A DNA stretch of 64,000 nucleotides. It comes from Escherichia coli (GTDB taxonomy: Bacteria; Pseudomonadota; Gammaproteobacteria; Enterobacterales; Enterobacteriaceae). Made by a program: the position numbers and the translations under genes. The notes under the pieces were generated by a model. It made no database searches. It was not told the DNA's origin and saw only the letters and a list, made by a program, of their open reading frames with translations. Location of the stretch: NCBI RefSeq assembly GCF_041886205.1, contig NZ_CP169029.1. One strand, given 5' to 3'. Below, piece by piece: positions 7,451 to 42,647 of this stretch; position 1 is the first letter of the stretch, and each line of letters opens with the position of its first letter.

Positions 7451-7486
7451 AATAAAAAAGGCCCCCCGATTTGGGAGGCCTTATTG
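7451..7486 (-). terminator. pheA attenuator terminator hairpin (minus strand)
   Basis: On minus strand ggcctcccaaatcggggggcc followed by ttttttatt, between pheL stop and pheA start. Confidence 0.7.
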
Positions 7487-7528
7487 TTCGTCTTCGCATT
7501 CTGTTTCACACGACGAAACGCCTCCCAT

Positions 7529-7576
7529 TCAGGGGAAGGTAAAAAAGAATGCGAAGAAAAACGGTGTGTGTTTCAT
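7529..7576 (-). CDS. pheL: pheA leader peptide (15 aa, 7 Phe codons), translated here as MKHTPFFFAFFFTFP
   Basis: Manual translation of the minus strand; not in the ORF track because it is below the length cut-off. Confidence 0.85.
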   Translation of the reverse strand: MKHTPFFFAFFFTFP

Positions 7577-7631
7577 GTTTGTTTCCTTAAGTGACTTTAG
7601 TACAGTACCCGTACTGTTTTCACGCTGTCAA

Positions 7632-10872: not shown

Positions 10873-10934
10873 CCTAAAGAATCAAGACGATCCGGTACGC
10901 GTGATTTTCTTTTCACATTAATCTGGTCAATAAC

Positions 10935-10964
10935 CTTGAATAATTGAGGGATGACCTCATTTAA
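10935..10964 (+). promoter_or_regulatory. Sigma-32 heat-shock promoter of clpB
   Basis: cttgaa ... cctcatttaa, matching the CTTGAA-N13-15-CCCCATNT class, about 40-65 nt upstream of clpB. Confidence 0.6.
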
Positions 10965-11001
10965 TCTCCAGTAGCAACTTTGATCCGTTATGGGAGGAGT
11001 T

Positions 11002-13575
11002 ATGCGTCTGGATCGTCTTACTAATAAATTCCAGCTTGCTCTTGCCGATGCCCAATCACTTGCACTCGGGCACGACAACCAATTTATCGAACCACTTCAT
11101 TTAATGAGCGCCCTGCTGAATCAGGAAGGGGGTTCGGTTAGTCCTTTATTAACATCCGCTGGCATAAATGCTGGCCAGTTGCGCACAGATATCAATCAGG
11201 CATTAAATCGTTTACCGCAGGTTGAAGGTACTGGTGGTGATGTCCAGCCATCACAGGATCTGGTGCGCGTTCTTAATCTTTGCGACAAGCTGGCGCAAAA
11301 ACGTGGTGATAACTTTATCTCGTCAGAACTGTTCGTTCTGGCGGCACTTGAGTCTCGCGGCACGCTGGCCGACATCCTGAAAGCAGCAGGGGCGACCACC
11401 GCCAACATTACTCAAGCGATTGAACAAATGCGTGGAGGTGAAAGCGTGAACGATCAAGGTGCTGAAGACCAACGTCAGGCTTTGAAAAAATATACCATCG
11501 ACCTTACCGAACGAGCCGAACAGGGCAAACTCGATCCGGTGATTGGTCGTGATGAAGAAATTCGCCGTACCATTCAGGTGCTGCAACGTCGTACTAAAAA
11601 TAACCCGGTACTGATTGGTGAACCCGGCGTCGGTAAAACTGCCATCGTTGAAGGTCTGGCGCAGCGTATTATCAACGGCGAAGTGCCGGAAGGATTGAAA
11701 GGCCGCCGCGTGCTGGCGCTGGATATGGGCGCGCTGGTGGCTGGGGCGAAATATCGCGGTGAGTTTGAAGAACGTTTAAAAGGCGTGCTTAACGATCTTG
11801 CCAAACAGGAAGGCAACGTCATCCTGTTTATCGACGAATTACATACCATGGTCGGCGCGGGTAAAGCTGATGGCGCAATGGACGCCGGAAACATGCTGAA
11901 ACCGGCGCTGGCGCGTGGTGAATTGCACTGCGTAGGTGCCACGACGCTTGACGAATATCGCCAGTACATTGAAAAAGATGCTGCGCTGGAACGTCGTTTC
12001 CAGAAAGTGTTTGTTGCCGAGCCTTCTGTTGAAGATACCATTGCGATTCTGCGTGGCCTGAAAGAACGTTACGAATTGCACCACCATGTGCAAATTACTG
12101 ACCCGGCAATTGTTGCAGCGGCGACGTTGTCTCATCGCTACATTGCTGACCGTCAGCTGCCGGATAAAGCCATCGACCTGATCGATGAAGCAGCATCCAG
12201 CATTCGTATGCAGATTGACTCAAAACCAGAAGAACTCGACCGACTCGATCGTCGTATCATCCAGCTCAAACTGGAACAACAGGCGTTAATGAAAGAGTCT
12301 GATGAAGCCAGTAAAAAACGCCTGGATATGCTCAACGAAGAACTGAGCGACAAAGAACGTCAGTACTCCGAGTTAGAAGAAGAGTGGAAAGCAGAGAAAG
12401 CATCGCTTTCTGGTACGCAGACCATTAAAGCGGAACTGGAACAGGCGAAAATCGCTATTGAACAGGCTCGCCGTGTGGGGGACCTGGCGCGGATGTCTGA
12501 ACTGCAATACGGCAAAATCCCGGAACTGGAAAAGCAACTGGAAGCCGCAACGCAGCTCGAAGGCAAAACTATGCGTCTGTTGCGTAATAAAGTGACCGAT
12601 GCCGAAATTGCTGAAGTGCTGGCGCGTTGGACTGGGATTCCGGTTTCTCGCATGATGGAAAGCGAGCGCGAAAAACTGCTGCGTATGGAGCAAGAACTGC
12701 ACCATCGCGTTATTGGTCAGAACGAAGCGGTTGATGCGGTATCTAACGCTATTCGTCGTAGCCGTGCGGGGCTGGCGGATCCAAATCGCCCGATTGGTTC
12801 ATTCCTGTTCCTCGGCCCAACGGGTGTGGGGAAAACAGAGCTTTGTAAGGCGCTGGCGAACTTTATGTTTGATAGCGACGAGGCGATGGTCCGTATCGAT
12901 ATGTCCGAGTTTATGGAGAAACACTCGGTGTCTCGTTTGGTTGGTGCGCCTCCGGGATATGTCGGTTATGAAGAAGGTGGCTACCTGACCGAAGCGGTGC
13001 GTCGTCGTCCGTATTCCGTCATCCTGCTGGATGAAGTGGAAAAAGCGCATCCGGATGTCTTCAACATTCTGTTGCAGGTACTGGATGATGGGCGTCTGAC
13101 TGACGGGCAGGGGAGAACGGTCGACTTCCGTAATACGGTTGTCATTATGACCTCTAACCTCGGTTCCGATTTGATTCAGGAACGCTTCGGTGAACTGGAT
13201 TATGCGCACATGAAAGAGCTGGTGCTCGGTGTGGTAAGCCATAACTTCCGTCCGGAATTCATTAACCGTATCGATGAAGTGGTGGTTTTCCATCCGCTGG
13301 GTGAACAGCACATTGCGTCGATTGCGCAGATTCAGTTGAAACGTCTGTACAAACGTCTGGAAGAACGTGGTTATGAAATCCACATTTCTGACGAGGCGCT
13401 GAAACTGCTGAGCGAGAACGGTTACGATCCGGTCTATGGTGCACGTCCTCTGAAACGTGCAATTCAGCAGCAGATCGAAAACCCGCTGGCACAGCAAATA
13501 CTGTCTGGTGAATTGGTTCCGGGTAAAGTGATTCGCCTGGAAGTTAATGAAGACCGGATTGTCGCCGTCCAGTAA
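11002..13575 (+). CDS. clpB: Chaperone/disaggregase ClpB (two AAA+ modules)
   Basis: 857-aa product [18 protein letters not shown]...; two Walker A motifs ([16 protein letters not shown]); RBS gggaggag. ORF track starts 12 nt upstream at an in-frame ATG. Confidence 0.95.
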
Positions 13576-14018: not shown

Positions 14019-15560
<1,542 letters not shown>

Positions 15561-15645
15561 CCTTAAAGAAGCGTACTTTGCAGTGCTCACACAGATTGTC
15601 TGATAGAAAGTGAAAAGCAAGGCGTCTTGCGAAGCAGACTGATAC

Positions 15646-15721
15646 GTCCCCTTCGTCTAGAGGCCCAGGACACCGCCCTTTCACGGCGGTAACAGGGGTT
15701 CGAATCCCCTAGGGGACGCCA
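15646..15721 (+). tRNA. gltW: tRNA-Glu (anticodon UUC) in the 16S-23S spacer
   Basis: GTCCCCTTCGTCTAGAGGCCCAGGACACCGCCCTTTCACGGCGG...GGGGACGCCA; anticodon loop CTTTCAC; 76 nt including CCA. Confidence 0.95.
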
Positions 15722-15914
15722 CTTGCTGGTTTGTGAGTGAAAGTCACCTGCCTTAATATCTCAAAACTCATCTTCGGGTGATGTTTGAGATATTTGCTCT
15801 TTAAAAATCTGGATCAAGCTGAAAATTGAAACACTGAACAACGAAAGTTGTTCGTGAGTCTCTCAAATTTTCGCAACACGATGATGAATCGCAAGAAACA
15901 TCTTCGGGTTGTGA

Positions 15915-18818
<2,904 letters not shown>

Positions 18819-18911
18819 ACAACGCCGAAGATGTTTTGGCGGATTGAGAGAAGATTTTCAGCCTGATACAGATTAAATCAGAACGCAGAAGCGGTCTGAT
18901 AAAACAGAATT

Positions 18912-19031
18912 TGCCTGGCGGCCTTAGCGCGGTGGTCCCACCTGACCCCATGCCGAACTCAGAAGTGAAACGCCGTAGCGCCGATGGTAGTGTGGGGTCT
19001 CCCCATGCGAGAGTAGGGAACTGCCAGGCAT
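18912..19031 (+). rRNA. rrfG: 5S ribosomal RNA
   Basis: TGCCTGGCGGCC...GGGAACTGCCAGGCAT, 120 nt. Confidence 0.95.
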
Positions 19032-36373: not shown

Positions 36374-37329
36374 TGAAGCAACTTTGGTTTGCCATGTCAT
36401 TAGTGACAGGTAGCCTGTTATTCTCTGCTAACGCCTCGGCCACTCCCGCGTCCGGGGCGTTATTACAGCAGATGAACCTGGCCAGTCAGTCACTGAATTA
36501 CGAGCTGTCATTCATCAGCATCAATAAACAGGGTGTTGAGTCTCTGCGTTATCGACATGCACGCCTCGATAACCGTCCTCTTGCACAATTGTTGCAAATG
36601 GATGGCCCGCGCCGGGAAGTGGTACAGCGCGGCAATGAAATCAGCTATTTTGAACCGGGACTTGAACCGTTCACGCTTAATGGCGATTACATTGTTGATT
36701 CTCTGCCATCGCTCATCTATACCGATTTCAAACGCCTTTCTCCTTACTACGACTTCATCTCCGTCGGGCGCACGCGTATTGCTGATCGTCTTTGCGAAGT
36801 CATTCGCGTGGTTGCCCGAGATGGTACACGCTACAGCTACATCGTGTGGATGGACACTGAATCGAAATTACCGATGAGGGTTGATCTCCTTGATCGCGAT
36901 GGTGAAACGCTGGAACAATTTCGCGTGATTGCTTTTAACGTCAATCAGGATATCAGCAGCAGTATGCAGACGTTGGCGAAGGCAAATTTGCCGCCGTTGC
37001 TTTCTGTTCCTGTAGGTGAAAAAGCTAAATTCAGCTGGACGCCAACCTGGTTGCCACAGGGTTTTAGCGAAGTTTCCAGTAGTCGACGTCCGCTACCGAC
37101 GATGGACAACATGCCTATCGAATCACGTCTCTATTCCGACGGATTATTCAGCTTCTCGGTAAACGTTAACCGCGCTACGCCATCGAGCACCGATCAGATG
37201 TTGCGCACCGGACGCAGAACCGTCAGTACAAGCGTACGTGATAACGCCGAAATCACCATTGTCGGTGAACTGCCGCCGCAAACGGCGAAACGCATTGCCG
37301 AGAATATTAAGTTCGGGGCAGCGCAATGA
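36373..37329 (+). CDS. rseB: Sigma-E regulatory protein RseB (periplasmic)
   Basis: 318-aa ORF with signal peptide; coupled to rseA (1-nt overlap). Confidence 0.93.
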   Translation: MKQLWFAMSLVTGSLLFSANASATPASGALLQQMNLASQSLNYELSFISINKQGVESLRYRHARLDNRPLAQLLQMDGPRREVVQRGNEISYFEPGLEPFTLNGDYIVDSLPSLIYTDFKRLSPYYDFISVGRTRIADRLCEVIRVVARDGTRYSYIVWMDTESKLPMRVDLLDRDGETLEQFRVIAFNVNQDISSSMQTLAKANLPPLLSVPVGEKAKFSWTPTWLPQGFSEVSSSRRPLPTMDNMPIESRLYSDGLFSFSVNVNRATPSSTDQMLRTGRRTVSTSVRDNAEITIVGELPPQTAKRIAENIKFGAAQ

Positions 37330-37805
37330 TCAAAGAGTGGGCTACCGTCGTCTCCTGGCAAAACGGGCAGGCGCTGGTCAGTTGTGATGTTAAAGCCTCA
37401 TGCAGCAGCTGCGCTTCACGCGCCGGTTGCGGTAGCCGCGTGTTGAATAAACTTGGCCCGCAAACCACGCATACCATTGTCGTACCCTGTGATGAGCCGT
37501 TAGTGCCGGGGCAAAAAGTGGAATTGGGGATCGCCGAAGGCAGCCTGCTTAGCTCCGCATTACTGGTTTATATGTCGCCGCTGGTGGGATTATTCCTCAT
37601 CGCTTCGCTATTTCAGCTACTCTTTGCTTCTGACGTCGCAGCATTATGTGGTGCGGTCCTCGGCGGTATTGGCGGGTTCCTGATTGCGCGTGGCTACTCG
37701 CGTAAGTTTGCTGCCCGGGCAGAATGGCAACCGATCATCTTAAGCGTGGCATTGCCGCCTGGCCTTGTGCGATTTGAAACATCTTCGGAAGACGCGAGCC
37801 AGTGA
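37326..37805 (+). CDS. rseC: Sigma-E regulatory protein RseC (SoxR-reducing system family)
   Basis: 159-aa ORF with Cys-rich N-terminus and two TM segments; 4-nt overlap with rseB. Confidence 0.9.
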   Translation: MIKEWATVVSWQNGQALVSCDVKASCSSCASRAGCGSRVLNKLGPQTTHTIVVPCDEPLVPGQKVELGIAEGSLLSSALLVYMSPLVGLFLIASLFQLLFASDVAALCGAVLGGIGGFLIARGYSRKFAARAEWQPIILSVALPPGLVRFETSSEDASQ

Positions 37806-38002
37806 TTTCACTGGCTTTGTTGCATTTTGCATAACAAATGCGAGGACGTTTCCAGATACCACAATCCATACGGTATGAACATTTCCTCGCCTCAATGTTG
37901 TAGTGTAGAATGCGGCGTTTCTATTAATACAGACGTTAAGCTCAGAACAGCGACTTCTAAAAGCCTGGTTAACCGGGCATTAAGGCACAATAATCATACT
38001 TT

Positions 38003-39802
<1,800 letters not shown>

Positions 39803-39817: not shown

Positions 39818-40792
39818 ATGGCGAATATGTTTGCCCTGATTCTGGTGATTGCCACACTGGTGACGGGCATTTTATGGTGCGTGGATAAATTCTTTTTCGC
39901 ACCTAAACGGCGGGAACGTCAGGCAGCGGCGCAGGCGGCTGCCGGTGACTCACTGGATAAAGCAACGTTGAAAAAGGTTGCGCCGAAGCCTGGCTGGCTG
40001 GAAACCGGTGCTTCTGTTTTTCCGGTACTGGCTATCGTATTGATTGTGCGTTCGTTTATTTATGAACCGTTCCAGATCCCGTCAGGTTCGATGATGCCGA
40101 CTCTGTTAATCGGTGATTTTATTCTGGTAGAGAAGTTTGCTTATGGCATTAAAGATCCTATCTACCAGAAAACGCTGATCGAAACCGGTCATCCGAAACG
40201 CGGCGATATCGTGGTCTTTAAATATCCGGAAGATCCAAAGCTTGATTACATCAAGCGCGCGGTGGGTTTACCGGGCGATAAAGTCACTTACGATCCGGTC
40301 TCAAAAGAGCTGACGATTCAACCGGGATGCAGTTCCGGCCAGGCGTGTGAAAACGCGCTGCCGGTCACCTACTCAAACGTGGAACCGAGCGATTTCGTTC
40401 AGACCTTCTCACGCCGTAATGGTGGGGAAGCGACCAGCGGATTCTTTGAAGTGCCGAAAAACGAAACCAAAGAAAATGGAATTCGTCTTTCCGAGCGTAA
40501 AGAGACACTGGGTGATGTGACGCACCGCATTCTGACAGTGCCGATTGCGCAGGATCAGGTGGGGATGTATTACCAGCAGCCAGGGCAACAACTGGCAACC
40601 TGGATTGTTCCTCCGGGACAATACTTCATGATGGGCGACAACCGCGACAACAGCGCGGACAGCCGTTACTGGGGTTTTGTGCCTGAAGCGAATCTGGTCG
40701 GTCGGGCAACGGCTATCTGGATGAGCTTCGATAAGCAAGAAGGCGAATGGCCGACTGGTGTGCGCTTAAGTCGCATTGGCGGCATCCATTAA
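39818..40792 (+). CDS. lepB: Signal peptidase I
   Basis: 324-aa ORF with catalytic Ser box (PSGSMMPTL) and Lys box. Confidence 0.95.
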   Translation: MANMFALILVIATLVTGILWCVDKFFFAPKRRERQAAAQAAAGDSLDKATLKKVAPKPGWLETGASVFPVLAIVLIVRSFIYEPFQIPSGSMMPTLLIGDFILVEKFAYGIKDPIYQKTLIETGHPKRGDIVVFKYPEDPKLDYIKRAVGLPGDKVTYDPVSKELTIQPGCSSGQACENALPVTYSNVEPSDFVQTFSRRNGGEATSGFFEVPKNETKENGIRLSERKETLGDVTHRILTVPIAQDQVGMYYQQPGQQLATWIVPPGQYFMMGDNRDNSADSRYWGFVPEANLVGRATAIWMSFDKQEGEWPTGVRLSRIGGIH

Positions 40793-40805
40793 TAGCTCAT
40801 CTTCG

Positions 40806-40838
40806 TTCACGTTGTCGCCGTTATGGCGACAACGTGAA
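40806..40838 (+). terminator. Hairpin after lepB
   Basis: ttcacgttgtcgccgttatggcgacaacgtgaa inverted repeat followed by ttattt. Confidence 0.5.
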
Positions 40839-40937
40839 TTATTTATGAGATAAATCTCCCGTGGCTAACGACATCCCCCGTCGTTGTGTATAGAATATTC
40901 CCCCGAAGTTTAAGGTTGGCACCTCCAGGTTGCCACG

Positions 40938-41031
40938 GCACACGAAACAGCGTTGGTCCCCATATACCGCTAAACTGAAACTGCAGCGAAGCAGTTAGCA
41001 GAGCCATGTATATCAGGTCTGTTTCGTGTGC
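40938..41031 (+). promoter_or_regulatory. rnc leader: 13-bp perfect inverted repeat able to form a long-range stem, consistent with the RNase III autoregulatory cleavage site
   Basis: gcacacgaaacag (40938..40950) and ctgtttcgtgtgc (41019..41031) read directly. Confidence 0.5.
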
Positions 41032-41034
41032 TGA

Positions 41035-42647
<1,613 letters not shown>

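What the first reader, a model, noticed from the sequence alone, without database searches (positions are those of the whole stretch)
40938..41031. 13-bp perfect long-range inverted repeat in the rnc leader
gcacacgaaacag and ctgtttcgtgtgc lie 68 nt apart in the untranslated region just upstream of rnc. This can form a long double-stranded stem, the substrate type RNase III cleaves, and matches the known autoregulation in which RNase III cuts its own mRNA leader. It is a structural signal rather than a coding or promoter signal.
Basis: partly seen in the sequence, partly recalled or inferred. Interest (0 to 1): 0.3.

Follow-up and report, generated by a model that had tools for sequence, protein, structure and literature searches.

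The report
Known RNase III self-cleavage hairpin, rncO

Summary
The 13-nt arms (40938-40950 GCACACGAAACAG; 41019-41031 CTGTTTCGTGTGC; 68 nt apart) are exactly as described. The window has only three perfect inverted repeats this long, against 0.13 expected by chance.

The window is the E. coli lepA-lepB-rnc-era-recO-pdxJ region. Rfam family RF00552 (rncO) matches 40905-41119 over its full length at 257 bits (threshold 43). The two arms are 13 of the 15 base pairs of the basal helix of the middle hairpin (stem-loop II, 40936-41033). Folding pairs them with probability about 1.00 in four sequence contexts.

Across 85 distinct leaders from Enterobacteriaceae and neighbouring families, 96% of stem positions are paired. 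This falls to 30-47% when the partner column is slid. Two pairs carry the recurrent A-U to C-G compensatory changes, but the arms are mostly invariant in sequence.

The 68 nt between the arms are not conserved. Most genera have only 17-22 nt there. The conserved core is 15 bp, a 2x2 internal loop and a 4-5 bp helix, about the length of a classical RNase III substrate.

The exact cleavage positions could not be checked because the primary papers were not available.

Verdict: already known, interpretation supported, low interest.

The parts
40868..40896 (+). Promoter-like site of the rnc operon (ACGACA - 17 nt - TAGAAT)
   Evidence: Consensus scan. The -10 region TATAGAAT is invariant or nearly so in all 86 aligned leaders. 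Its position fits a transcription start at 40905.
40905..41119 (+). rncO, the whole post-transcriptional operator (5' UTR plus the first 55 nt of rnc)
   Evidence: Rfam RF00552, 257.4 bits against a gathering score of 43, model positions 1-214 of 214, E 4e-61. The 5' end agrees with published transcript boundaries: -160 relative to the start codon (PMC4191395) and a 5' UTR of nt 1-160 (PMC10037077).
40917..40935 (+). Stem-loop I (7-bp hairpin directly abutting stem-loop II)
   Evidence: Rfam consensus structure and minimum-free-energy folds. 6 of 7 pairs show changes on both sides across 85 leaders.
40936..41033 (+). Stem-loop II, the irregular 98-nt hairpin that the literature names as the RNase III target
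   Evidence: Folded alone: -41.2 kcal/mol, z -5.42, 0 of 200 shuffles as stable. Rfam structure, model positions 32-128. nt 32-129 of the transcript; the published nt 1-129 fragment ends exactly at its base.
40938..40950 (+). 5' arm of the reported inverted repeat (transcript nt 34-46)
   Evidence: Pair probabilities 0.98-1.00. Within the 15-nt arm 40936-40950, 12 of 15 columns are invariant in 80 Enterobacteriaceae leaders.
41019..41031 (+). 3' arm of the reported inverted repeat (transcript nt 115-127)
   Evidence: Within the 15-nt arm 41019-41033, 12 of 15 columns are invariant in 80 Enterobacteriaceae leaders.
40951..40957 (+). 5' side of the conserved 2x2 internal loop (C40951, G40952) and of the short upper helix UUGGU
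   Evidence: Folds of the E. coli hairpin and of short-form hairpins from other genera give the same 2x2 loop plus a 4-5 bp helix. Consensus fold pairs 18/85 to 22/81. Mean column identity 0.91.
41012..41018 (+). 3' side of the short upper helix (AUCAG) and of the 2x2 internal loop (G41017, U41018)
   Evidence: Two of the five pairs are G.U or U.G wobbles, which exist only on the + strand RNA.
40958..41011 (+). Distal, lineage-specific extension of stem-loop II (most of the 68-nt spacer)
   Evidence: Mean column identity 0.60 with no invariant column. Absent in most genera: the spacer is 17-22 nt in 54 of 86 leaders. Polymorphic within E. coli, including a 6-nt deletion in strain 317. The apical helix keeps pairing through double changes within the Escherichia-Citrobacter-Salmonella group.
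41085..41104 (+). Stem-loop III (8-bp hairpin inside codons 7-14 of rnc)
   Evidence: Rfam consensus structure, model positions 180-199, and the minimum-free-energy fold of 40905-41119.
41065..41745 (+). rnc coding sequence (RNase III, 226 aa), the regulated gene and the source of the enzyme that cuts the leader
   Evidence: ORF list. RefSeq annotates the matching region in 5,425 E. coli genomes as rnc, ribonuclease III. Pfam Ribonuclease_3 and dsrm domains on the homologues.

Best explanation
The two arms pair in the rnc-era-recO mRNA, not in DNA. They form the 15-bp basal helix of stem-loop II of rncO, the post-transcriptional operator of the RNase III operon.

Transcription starts at 40905. 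The first 129 nt fold into hairpin I (40917-40935) and hairpin II (40936-41033), which abut each other.

In most relatives, hairpin II's basal helix, a 2x2 internal loop and a 4-5 bp upper helix give about 22 stacked positions, roughly two turns of A-form RNA. That is the size of duplex that E. coli RNase III binds as a dimer and cuts on both strands.

When free RNase III is abundant, it cuts this hairpin. That removes the structured, triphosphorylated 5' end and leaves a monophosphorylated, largely unpaired 5' end on the rnc message, which then decays quickly (RNase E). Less RNase III, Era and RecO are made. When rRNA precursors and other substrates occupy the enzyme, the leader escapes cleavage and expression rises.

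Shown here: the repeat, its strong predicted pairing, family membership, position in the transcript, and conservation with some compensatory change.

Taken from the literature: cleavage by RNase III, destabilisation and feedback.

Inferred: that the cut falls within or next to the 13-nt arms.
For: Sequence and statistics:
- The repeat is exact and rare.

Context:
- The gene order is lepA-lepB-rnc-era-recO-pdxJ, and the region is present once in 5,425 of 5,426 complete E. coli genomes.

Family:
- RF00552 rncO scores 257.4 bits over its full length on the + strand, against 22.7 bits (below threshold) on the - strand.
- All 20 tested Enterobacteriaceae loci pass at 149-231 bits.
- All eight loci from neighbouring families also pass, at 43.5-126 bits.

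Folding:
- The arms pair in the minimum-free-energy and centroid structures.
- Pair probability is 0.98-1.00 for the 13 pairs whether the hairpin alone, the 215-nt rncO, the leader plus 336 nt of coding sequence, or a lepB read-through context is folded.
- The 15-bp duplex is worth -24.4 kcal/mol.

Comparative:
- In 85 distinct leaders, 96.1% of stem cells are standard pairs, against 30-47% with the partner slid by 1-3 columns.
- 4 pairs have double changes against 1-2 in slid controls, and 0 of 500 shuffles reach any observed measure.
- A40949-U41020 alternates with C-G (34 against 41 sequences). A40945-U41024 becomes C-G in Photorhabdus, Xenorhabdus and Proteus.
- 12 of 15 columns are invariant in each arm, against 20 of 226 third codon positions of rnc in the same genomes.

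Literature:
- RNase III cleaves a long or irregular stem-loop in its own 5' UTR, creating an unstructured 5'-monophosphate end and rapid decay (PMC3867540; PMC5371410; PMC10582724; PMC10037077).
- A fusion carrying leader nt 1-129 is cleaved by RNase III in vivo, and nt 129 is window 41033.
Against: - Nothing here measures cleavage. The exact cut sites from Bardwell 1989 and Matsunaga 1996 could not be read, so placing the cut inside the arms is an inference.
- Covariation in the 13 reported pairs is thin. Only two pairs show recurrent double changes and most are simply invariant, which neither supports nor contradicts pairing.
- Several lineages tolerate one mismatch: C.U at pair 14 in 10 leaders, A.C at pair 10 in 9 Enterobacteriaceae leaders (12 of 85 cells unpaired at that pair in all), and a mismatch at pair 13 in 5 leaders.
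- In E. coli, folding energy does not distinguish the strands (-41.2 on + against -42.7 on -). Strand assignment rests on gene context, wobble pairs and the Rfam score.
- The stem is degenerate in Serratia symbiotica and Sodalis, and it is effectively absent in Serratia microhaemolytica and Limnobaculum. The element is therefore confined to part of the Enterobacterales.
Confidence: 0.93

Rival explanations
1. The basal helix is mainly a protective 5' structure. Together with hairpin I it blocks 5'-end-dependent decay, and RNase III cuts elsewhere, in the distal part of hairpin II. On this reading the arms are not themselves the scissile duplex.
For: Hairpins I and II abut at the very 5' end of the transcript, the position where 5' stem-loops stabilise E. 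coli mRNAs (established knowledge). The E. coli hairpin has a further roughly 25 irregular base-paired positions above the basal helix that could hold a cleavage site. The exact cut sites were not available to me.
Against: In 54 of 86 leaders there is no distal part at all (spacer 17-22 nt), yet the basal helix and its flanking motifs are kept almost unchanged. Any conserved RNase III site must therefore lie in the core. A cut only in the distal part would leave the downstream mRNA still paired to the 5' fragment through 15 bp, which does not fit the 'unstructured 5' end' described in PMC3867540. The two roles are not exclusive: protection before cleavage, loss of protection after.
Confidence: 0.05
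2. The repeat is a transcription attenuator or intrinsic terminator between lepB and rnc.
For: It is a stable G+C-containing hairpin in an intergenic leader.
Against: No T-run follows the 3' arm (GTGTGCTGAATTGTTGACG). The terminator scan reports only the lepB hairpin at 40805-40839 and nothing at 41019-41045. A 98-nt hairpin with a 15-bp base is unlike intrinsic terminators. The rnc promoter lies upstream of the hairpin, so the hairpin is inside the transcript that must be completed.
Confidence: 0.01
3. The repeat acts at DNA level, as a palindromic protein-binding operator or a cruciform, or it is a chance or mobile-element repeat.
For: It is a perfect DNA palindrome pair, and both arm sequences are more invariant than pairing alone requires.
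Against: The distance between the arms varies from 17 to 92 nt among species, which does not suit a dimeric DNA-binding site. The helix extends through G.U and U.G wobbles that are mismatches in DNA and on the opposite strand. The chance expectation is 0.13 per window. The hairpin is single-copy in every E. coli genome, so it is not a repeated mobile element.
Confidence: 0.01

Closest known systems
rncO, the RNase III operon post-transcriptional operator (Rfam RF00552; Bardwell et al. 1989; Matsunaga, Simons and Simons 1996)
   Same: It is this element: same genomic position, same 215-nt extent, a full-length covariance-model match, and the predicted three-hairpin layout. The reported arms are the base of stem-loop II.
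   Different: Nothing differs in kind. This window's copy differs from K-12-like strains at two positions in the distal part of hairpin II (40970 and 41003), which shift a 3-bp helix by one register. The arms are identical.
pnp leader RNase III site (autoregulation of polynucleotide phosphorylase)
   Same: A long hairpin in the 5' UTR is cut by RNase III, which starts decay of the downstream message (PMC5371410).
   Different: Different gene and sequence. There the feedback sensor is PNPase acting after the RNase III cut, whereas in rncO the cutting enzyme is itself the regulated product.
Classical phage T7 R1.1-type RNase III processing signals
   Same: The conserved core here is about 22 stacked positions interrupted by a small internal loop. 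That resembles in size the two-turn hairpins with an internal loop used as model substrates (established knowledge; PMC3867540).
   Different: The sequences are unrelated. R1.1 is a maturation signal that leaves stable products, whereas rncO cleavage triggers decay. The E. coli rncO hairpin also carries a long extra distal extension.

Membership tests
rncO (Rfam RF00552) | Covariance-model score at or above the curated gathering score (43 bits) | tested here: met
   257.4 bits, model positions 1-214 of 214, E 4e-61, + strand, window 40905-41119.
rncO (Rfam RF00552) | [quoted passage not shown] | tested here: met
   ORFs and RefSeq annotation. The arms lie 34-127 nt upstream of the rnc ATG. The same synteny is seen in all fetched loci.
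rncO (Rfam RF00552) | Three stem-loops (I, II, III), with II a long irregular hairpin | tested here: met
   Prediction only. I is 40917-40935, II is 40936-41033 and III is 41085-41104, in the Rfam consensus structure and the minimum-free-energy fold. Pairing of I and of the base of II is supported comparatively.
rncO (Rfam RF00552) | Stem-loop II is cleaved by RNase III in vivo and in vitro | not testable with these tools
   Stated in reviews and later papers (PMC3867540, PMC5371410, PMC10582724, PMC10037077). The primary mapping papers are not held, and the Altuvia 2018 supplementary table with the rnc sites is not held.
rncO (Rfam RF00552) | Cleavage destabilises rnc mRNA and gives negative feedback on RNase III synthesis | not testable with these tools
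   Literature only.
Canonical E. coli RNase III double-strand cleavage substrate | About two helical turns (roughly 22-24 duplex positions) of mostly paired RNA | tested here: met
   15 bp plus a 2x2 loop plus a 4-5 bp helix gives 21-22 positions in the conserved core, and more in E. coli. Altuvia 2018 scores 24 positions around the two cuts.
Canonical E. coli RNase III double-strand cleavage substrate | Two staggered cuts leaving 2-nt 3' overhangs, with proximal-box and distal-box base-pair preferences around them | not tested
   The cut positions are unknown to me, so the box positions cannot be placed. The position-specific score table (Altuvia 2018, Table S4) is not held.

The most novel reading that the evidence does not exclude
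The operator that evolution actually conserves may be a compact hairpin of about 47 nt: a 15-bp stem, a 2x2 internal loop, a 4-5 bp helix and a small loop. On this reading the 68-nt E. coli 'spacer' is a fast-evolving, repeatedly gained or lost extension that autoregulation does not need.

The stem's near-invariant sequence (12 of 15 columns per arm, against free covariation in neighbouring hairpin I) would then mean the helix is read base-specifically.
Probability: 0.15. Interest if true: 0.3.

Novelty: already known. Interest (0 to 1): 0.08.

Why it matters
rncO is the feedback device that sets the cellular level of RNase III, and with it Era and RecO, against the load of rRNA precursors and other double-stranded substrates. 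The result confirms that a reader working from sequence alone can recognise it correctly. That is a useful calibration point for the scan, but it adds nothing to biology.

The one modest addition is comparative. Among 80 Enterobacteriaceae species the basal helix is almost sequence-invariant, while the part between the arms ranges from 17 to 92 nt. This defines a minimal conserved core that could guide design of RNase III-responsive RNA modules, such as the published nt 1-129 guide-RNA fusion.

Tried and rejected
- **Primary papers.** I tried to read the mapping papers (Matsunaga 1996, PMC1369450; Bardwell 1989, PMC401487; Court 2013, PMC6311387; Hauk 2023). None is held.
- **Supplements.** I looked for rnc cleavage coordinates in the supplements of Altuvia 2018 and Weeks 2023. 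No supplementary text is held.
- **Literature searches.** Searches on rncO and 'rnc mRNA' returned only secondary descriptions, plus confirmation of the -160 transcript boundary. Most whole-word 'RNCO' hits were isocyanate chemistry.
- **Strand.** The - strand gives a sub-threshold Rfam hit (22.7 bits) and folds about as well in E. coli. That reflects the palindrome. I rejected a - strand RNA because of gene context, the wobble pairs, and the weaker - strand folding of the short-form hairpin tested, from Enterobacter cloacae (-23.2 against -27.9).
- **Coding.** A 92-aa - strand ORF (40843-41121) spans the hairpin. I rejected it as coding because the distal region carries indels of many lengths among species. 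On the + strand, the frame of rnc is closed by TGA at 41032-41034 in E. coli.
- **Terminator or attenuator.** Rejected: there is no T-run and no scan hit.
- **Repeated or mobile element.** Rejected: the hairpin is present once per genome.
- **mir-2001.** The hit at 40806-40838 (20 bits against a threshold of 74) is a chance match to the lepB terminator hairpin.
- **Cut-site prediction.** I considered predicting the cuts from the published base-pair preferences but did not commit, because the position-specific table is not available.

Full report
**Observation.** GCACACGAAACAG lies at 40938-40950 and its perfect reverse complement CTGTTTCGTGTGC at 41019-41031, separated by 68 nt. Watson-Crick complementarity ends there. 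In RNA the helix continues towards its base with G40937.U41032 and C40936-G41033, giving 15 pairs.

The repeat is not a chance feature. The 64-kb window contains only three perfect inverted repeats of at least 13 nt with a spacer of 200 nt or less, against a mean of 0.13 in 100 Markov simulations. The other two are also RNA hairpins: the lepB terminator-like hairpin at 40806-40838, and a repeat at 44530-44576 that lies in an Rfam ohsC match.

**Context.** The ORFs around the repeat are lepA, lepB (39818-40792), rnc (41065-41745), era, recO and pdxJ. The 351 nt around the repeat occur once in 5,425 of 5,426 complete E. coli genomes, between genes annotated lepB and rnc.

A promoter-like site (ACGACA, 17 nt, TAGAAT) ends at 40896. 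Published constructs place the 5' boundary of the rnc transcript at -160 from the start codon (PMC4191395; PMC10037077). That puts the transcription start at 40905, so the arms are transcript nt 34-46 and 115-127, inside the 5' UTR.

**What it is.** Rfam family RF00552 (rncO) matches 40905-41119 on the + strand over its full length, at 257.4 bits against a gathering score of 43. In the family's consensus structure the arms fall in a 15-bp helix (model positions 32-46 with 114-128). This helix is the base of the middle of three hairpins:
- stem-loop I at 40917-40935;
- stem-loop II at 40936-41033;
- stem-loop III at 41085-41104, inside the first codons of rnc.

**Folding.** Thermodynamic folding agrees.
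- The arms pair in the minimum-free-energy and centroid structures of 40900-41070.
- The 13 pairs have probability 0.98-1.00 in all four contexts folded: the hairpin alone, the 215-nt rncO, the leader plus 336 nt of coding sequence, and a read-through context from lepB.
- The hairpin alone has -41.2 kcal/mol and z = -5.4.

**Comparative test.** I fetched the rnc locus from 80 species of Enterobacteriaceae. Through RNase III homologues I also fetched it from Photorhabdus, Xenorhabdus, Proteus, Symbiopectobacterium, Serratia symbiotica, Sodalis, Limnobaculum and Serratia microhaemolytica. All 20 Enterobacteriaceae loci tested pass the rncO threshold at 149-231 bits. The eight outer loci score 43.5-126 bits, much of it from the conserved start region.

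On an alignment of 85 distinct leaders:
- The 15-bp helix is formed in 96.1% of cells, against 30-47% when the 3' partner is slid by one to three columns.
- Four pairs carry changes on both sides, against one or two in the slid controls.
- None of 500 column shuffles reaches any observed measure.
- A40949-U41020 alternates with C-G (34 against 41 sequences).
- A40945-U41024 becomes C-G in the three Morganellaceae.
- The remaining pairs are essentially invariant, which says nothing for or against pairing.
- Some lineages carry a single mismatch: C.U at pair 14 in 10 leaders, A.C at pair 10 in 9 Enterobacteriaceae leaders, and a mismatch at pair 13 in 5 leaders.

The support comes mostly from conservation plus a few compensatory changes, not from abundant covariation.

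**Sequence invariance of the arms.** In each 15-nt arm, 12 of 15 columns are invariant among the 80 Enterobacteriaceae. In the same genomes only 20 of 226 third codon positions of rnc are invariant. The neighbouring hairpin I covaries freely, with 6 of 7 pairs changed on both sides. The helix of stem-loop II therefore seems constrained in sequence as well as in pairing. Known base-pair preferences of RNase III around its cleavage sites would account for this (PMC6212723), but I could not test that.

**The spacer is not conserved.** The 68 nt between the arms vary widely.
- The spacer is 17-22 nt in 54 of 86 leaders. These include Enterobacter, Kluyvera, Klebsiella oxytoca, Atlantibacter, Siccibacter and most others.
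- It is 58-92 nt in about 25 leaders: Escherichia, most Citrobacter, Salmonella, Raoultella, Phytobacter and one Kosakonia.
- Differences occur even within Citrobacter.

Folding the short forms gives one recurring architecture: 15 bp, a 2x2 internal loop (CG opposite GU), a 4-5 bp helix (UUGG(U) with (A)UCAG) and a small loop. The same elements sit at the bottom of the E. coli hairpin.

This core spans about 22 stacked positions, the size of a classical RNase III substrate. The distal extension is polymorphic within E. coli, with two linked substitutions relative to K-12-like strains and a 6-nt deletion in strain 317, while the 13-nt arms are identical in all five strains compared. Within the Escherichia-Citrobacter-Salmonella group the apical helix keeps pairing through double changes.

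**Mechanism.** The literature I could read says that RNase III cleaves a long, irregular stem-loop in its own 5' UTR. The cut creates an unstructured 5'-monophosphate end that is then attacked by RNase E. The resulting negative feedback is relieved when rRNA precursors titrate the enzyme (PMC3867540; PMC5371410; PMC10582724; PMC10037077).

A guide-RNA fusion carrying leader nt 1-129 is cut by RNase III in vivo, and nt 129 is window 41033, the last base of the 15-bp helix. That fragment is therefore hairpins I and II exactly.

That the cuts fall within or beside the reported arms is my inference, on two grounds. The conserved core offers no other duplex in most species. A cut higher up would also leave the message still paired to the 5' fragment.

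**Rivals.**
- A terminator or attenuator is excluded: there is no T-run and no scan hit.
- A DNA-level operator does not fit the 17-92 nt variation in arm spacing, nor the wobble pairs that extend the helix only in + strand RNA.
- A - strand RNA is not supported: 22.7 bits, below threshold, and weaker folding of the short-form hairpin tested. In E. coli itself, however, folding energy does not separate the strands.
- Coding on either strand is excluded by the indel pattern and by an in-frame TGA at 41032.
- A purely protective role for the basal helix, with cleavage only in the distal part, remains possible at low probability. The published cut sites would settle it.

**Verdict.** Interest is low. 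The only mildly new points are comparative: a compact conserved core, near-invariant arm sequence, and a lineage-specific distal extension.

Noticed in passing
window 40805-40839: A perfect 14-bp inverted repeat (TTCACGTTGTCGCC / GGCGACAACGTGAA, 5-nt gap) lies 13 nt after the lepB stop codon and is followed by TATTTATGAG. It looks like the lepB terminator, just upstream of the rnc promoter. Other genera have a different G+C-rich hairpin at the same place, followed by a conserved AATTATTT.
   Followed up: partly
window 44530-44576 (Rfam hit 44532-44596, - strand): The longest perfect inverted repeat of the window (17 bp, ATAAAGTAAAACCCCCG / CGGGGGTTTTACTTTAT) lies downstream of the 126-aa ORF that follows pdxJ. 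It falls in a match to RF02495, ohsC RNA (73 bits against a threshold of 50), the antitoxin sRNA of a small toxin-antitoxin locus.
   Followed up: partly
L004-L011, L026, L027, L034 (Citrobacter); L047, L048, L051, L080 (Phytobacter and Kosakonia): The length of the distal part of rncO hairpin II changes between close relatives. Two Citrobacter youngae assemblies have 34 and 63 nt, several Citrobacter sp. have 20 nt, and Kosakonia has 17-19 or 74 nt. This suggests repeated gain or loss of the extension.
   Followed up: partly
L087 (Limnobaculum, Budviciaceae) 1964-2524: In this locus a 186-aa gene with no Pfam hit sits between rnc and era. That breaks the overlapping rnc-era junction seen in E. 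coli (ATGA at window 41742-41745) and in the other seven loci fetched by the same route. Hairpin II of rncO is also essentially missing there.
   Followed up: no
L069 (record titled Chryseobacterium sp. 18061): A contig labelled Chryseobacterium carries an Enterobacteriaceae-type lepB-rncO-rnc locus with a 97% identical RNase III. It is probably contamination or mislabelling of that assembly.
   Followed up: no
proteins P0007, P0009-P0015: The protein database holds several RNase III gene calls of 282 aa, 96-97% identical to the E. coli enzyme. The roughly 56 extra residues are probably N-terminal extensions read through the leader. In several genera the rnc frame stays open for 81-120 nt upstream of the ATG, because the TGA at window 41032-41034 is TGC there. 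This does not fully explain 56 residues.
   Followed up: partly
L075 2809-2900 (Klebsiella oxytoca; equivalent to about window 42673-42764, start of recO): A match to RF02902, Aggregatibacter sRNA 22 (48.5 bits against a threshold of 39.8), falls on the 5' end of recO. The window itself gave no such hit at gathering threshold.
   Followed up: no
window 14019-19029, 7452-7577, 10883-11021, 37290-38121, 53797-53944: Other Rfam features of the window are a complete rRNA operon (16S, one tRNA, 23S, 5S), the Phe leader, RyfD, the AsrC antisense RNA opposite the start of lepA, and GlmY.
   Followed up: no
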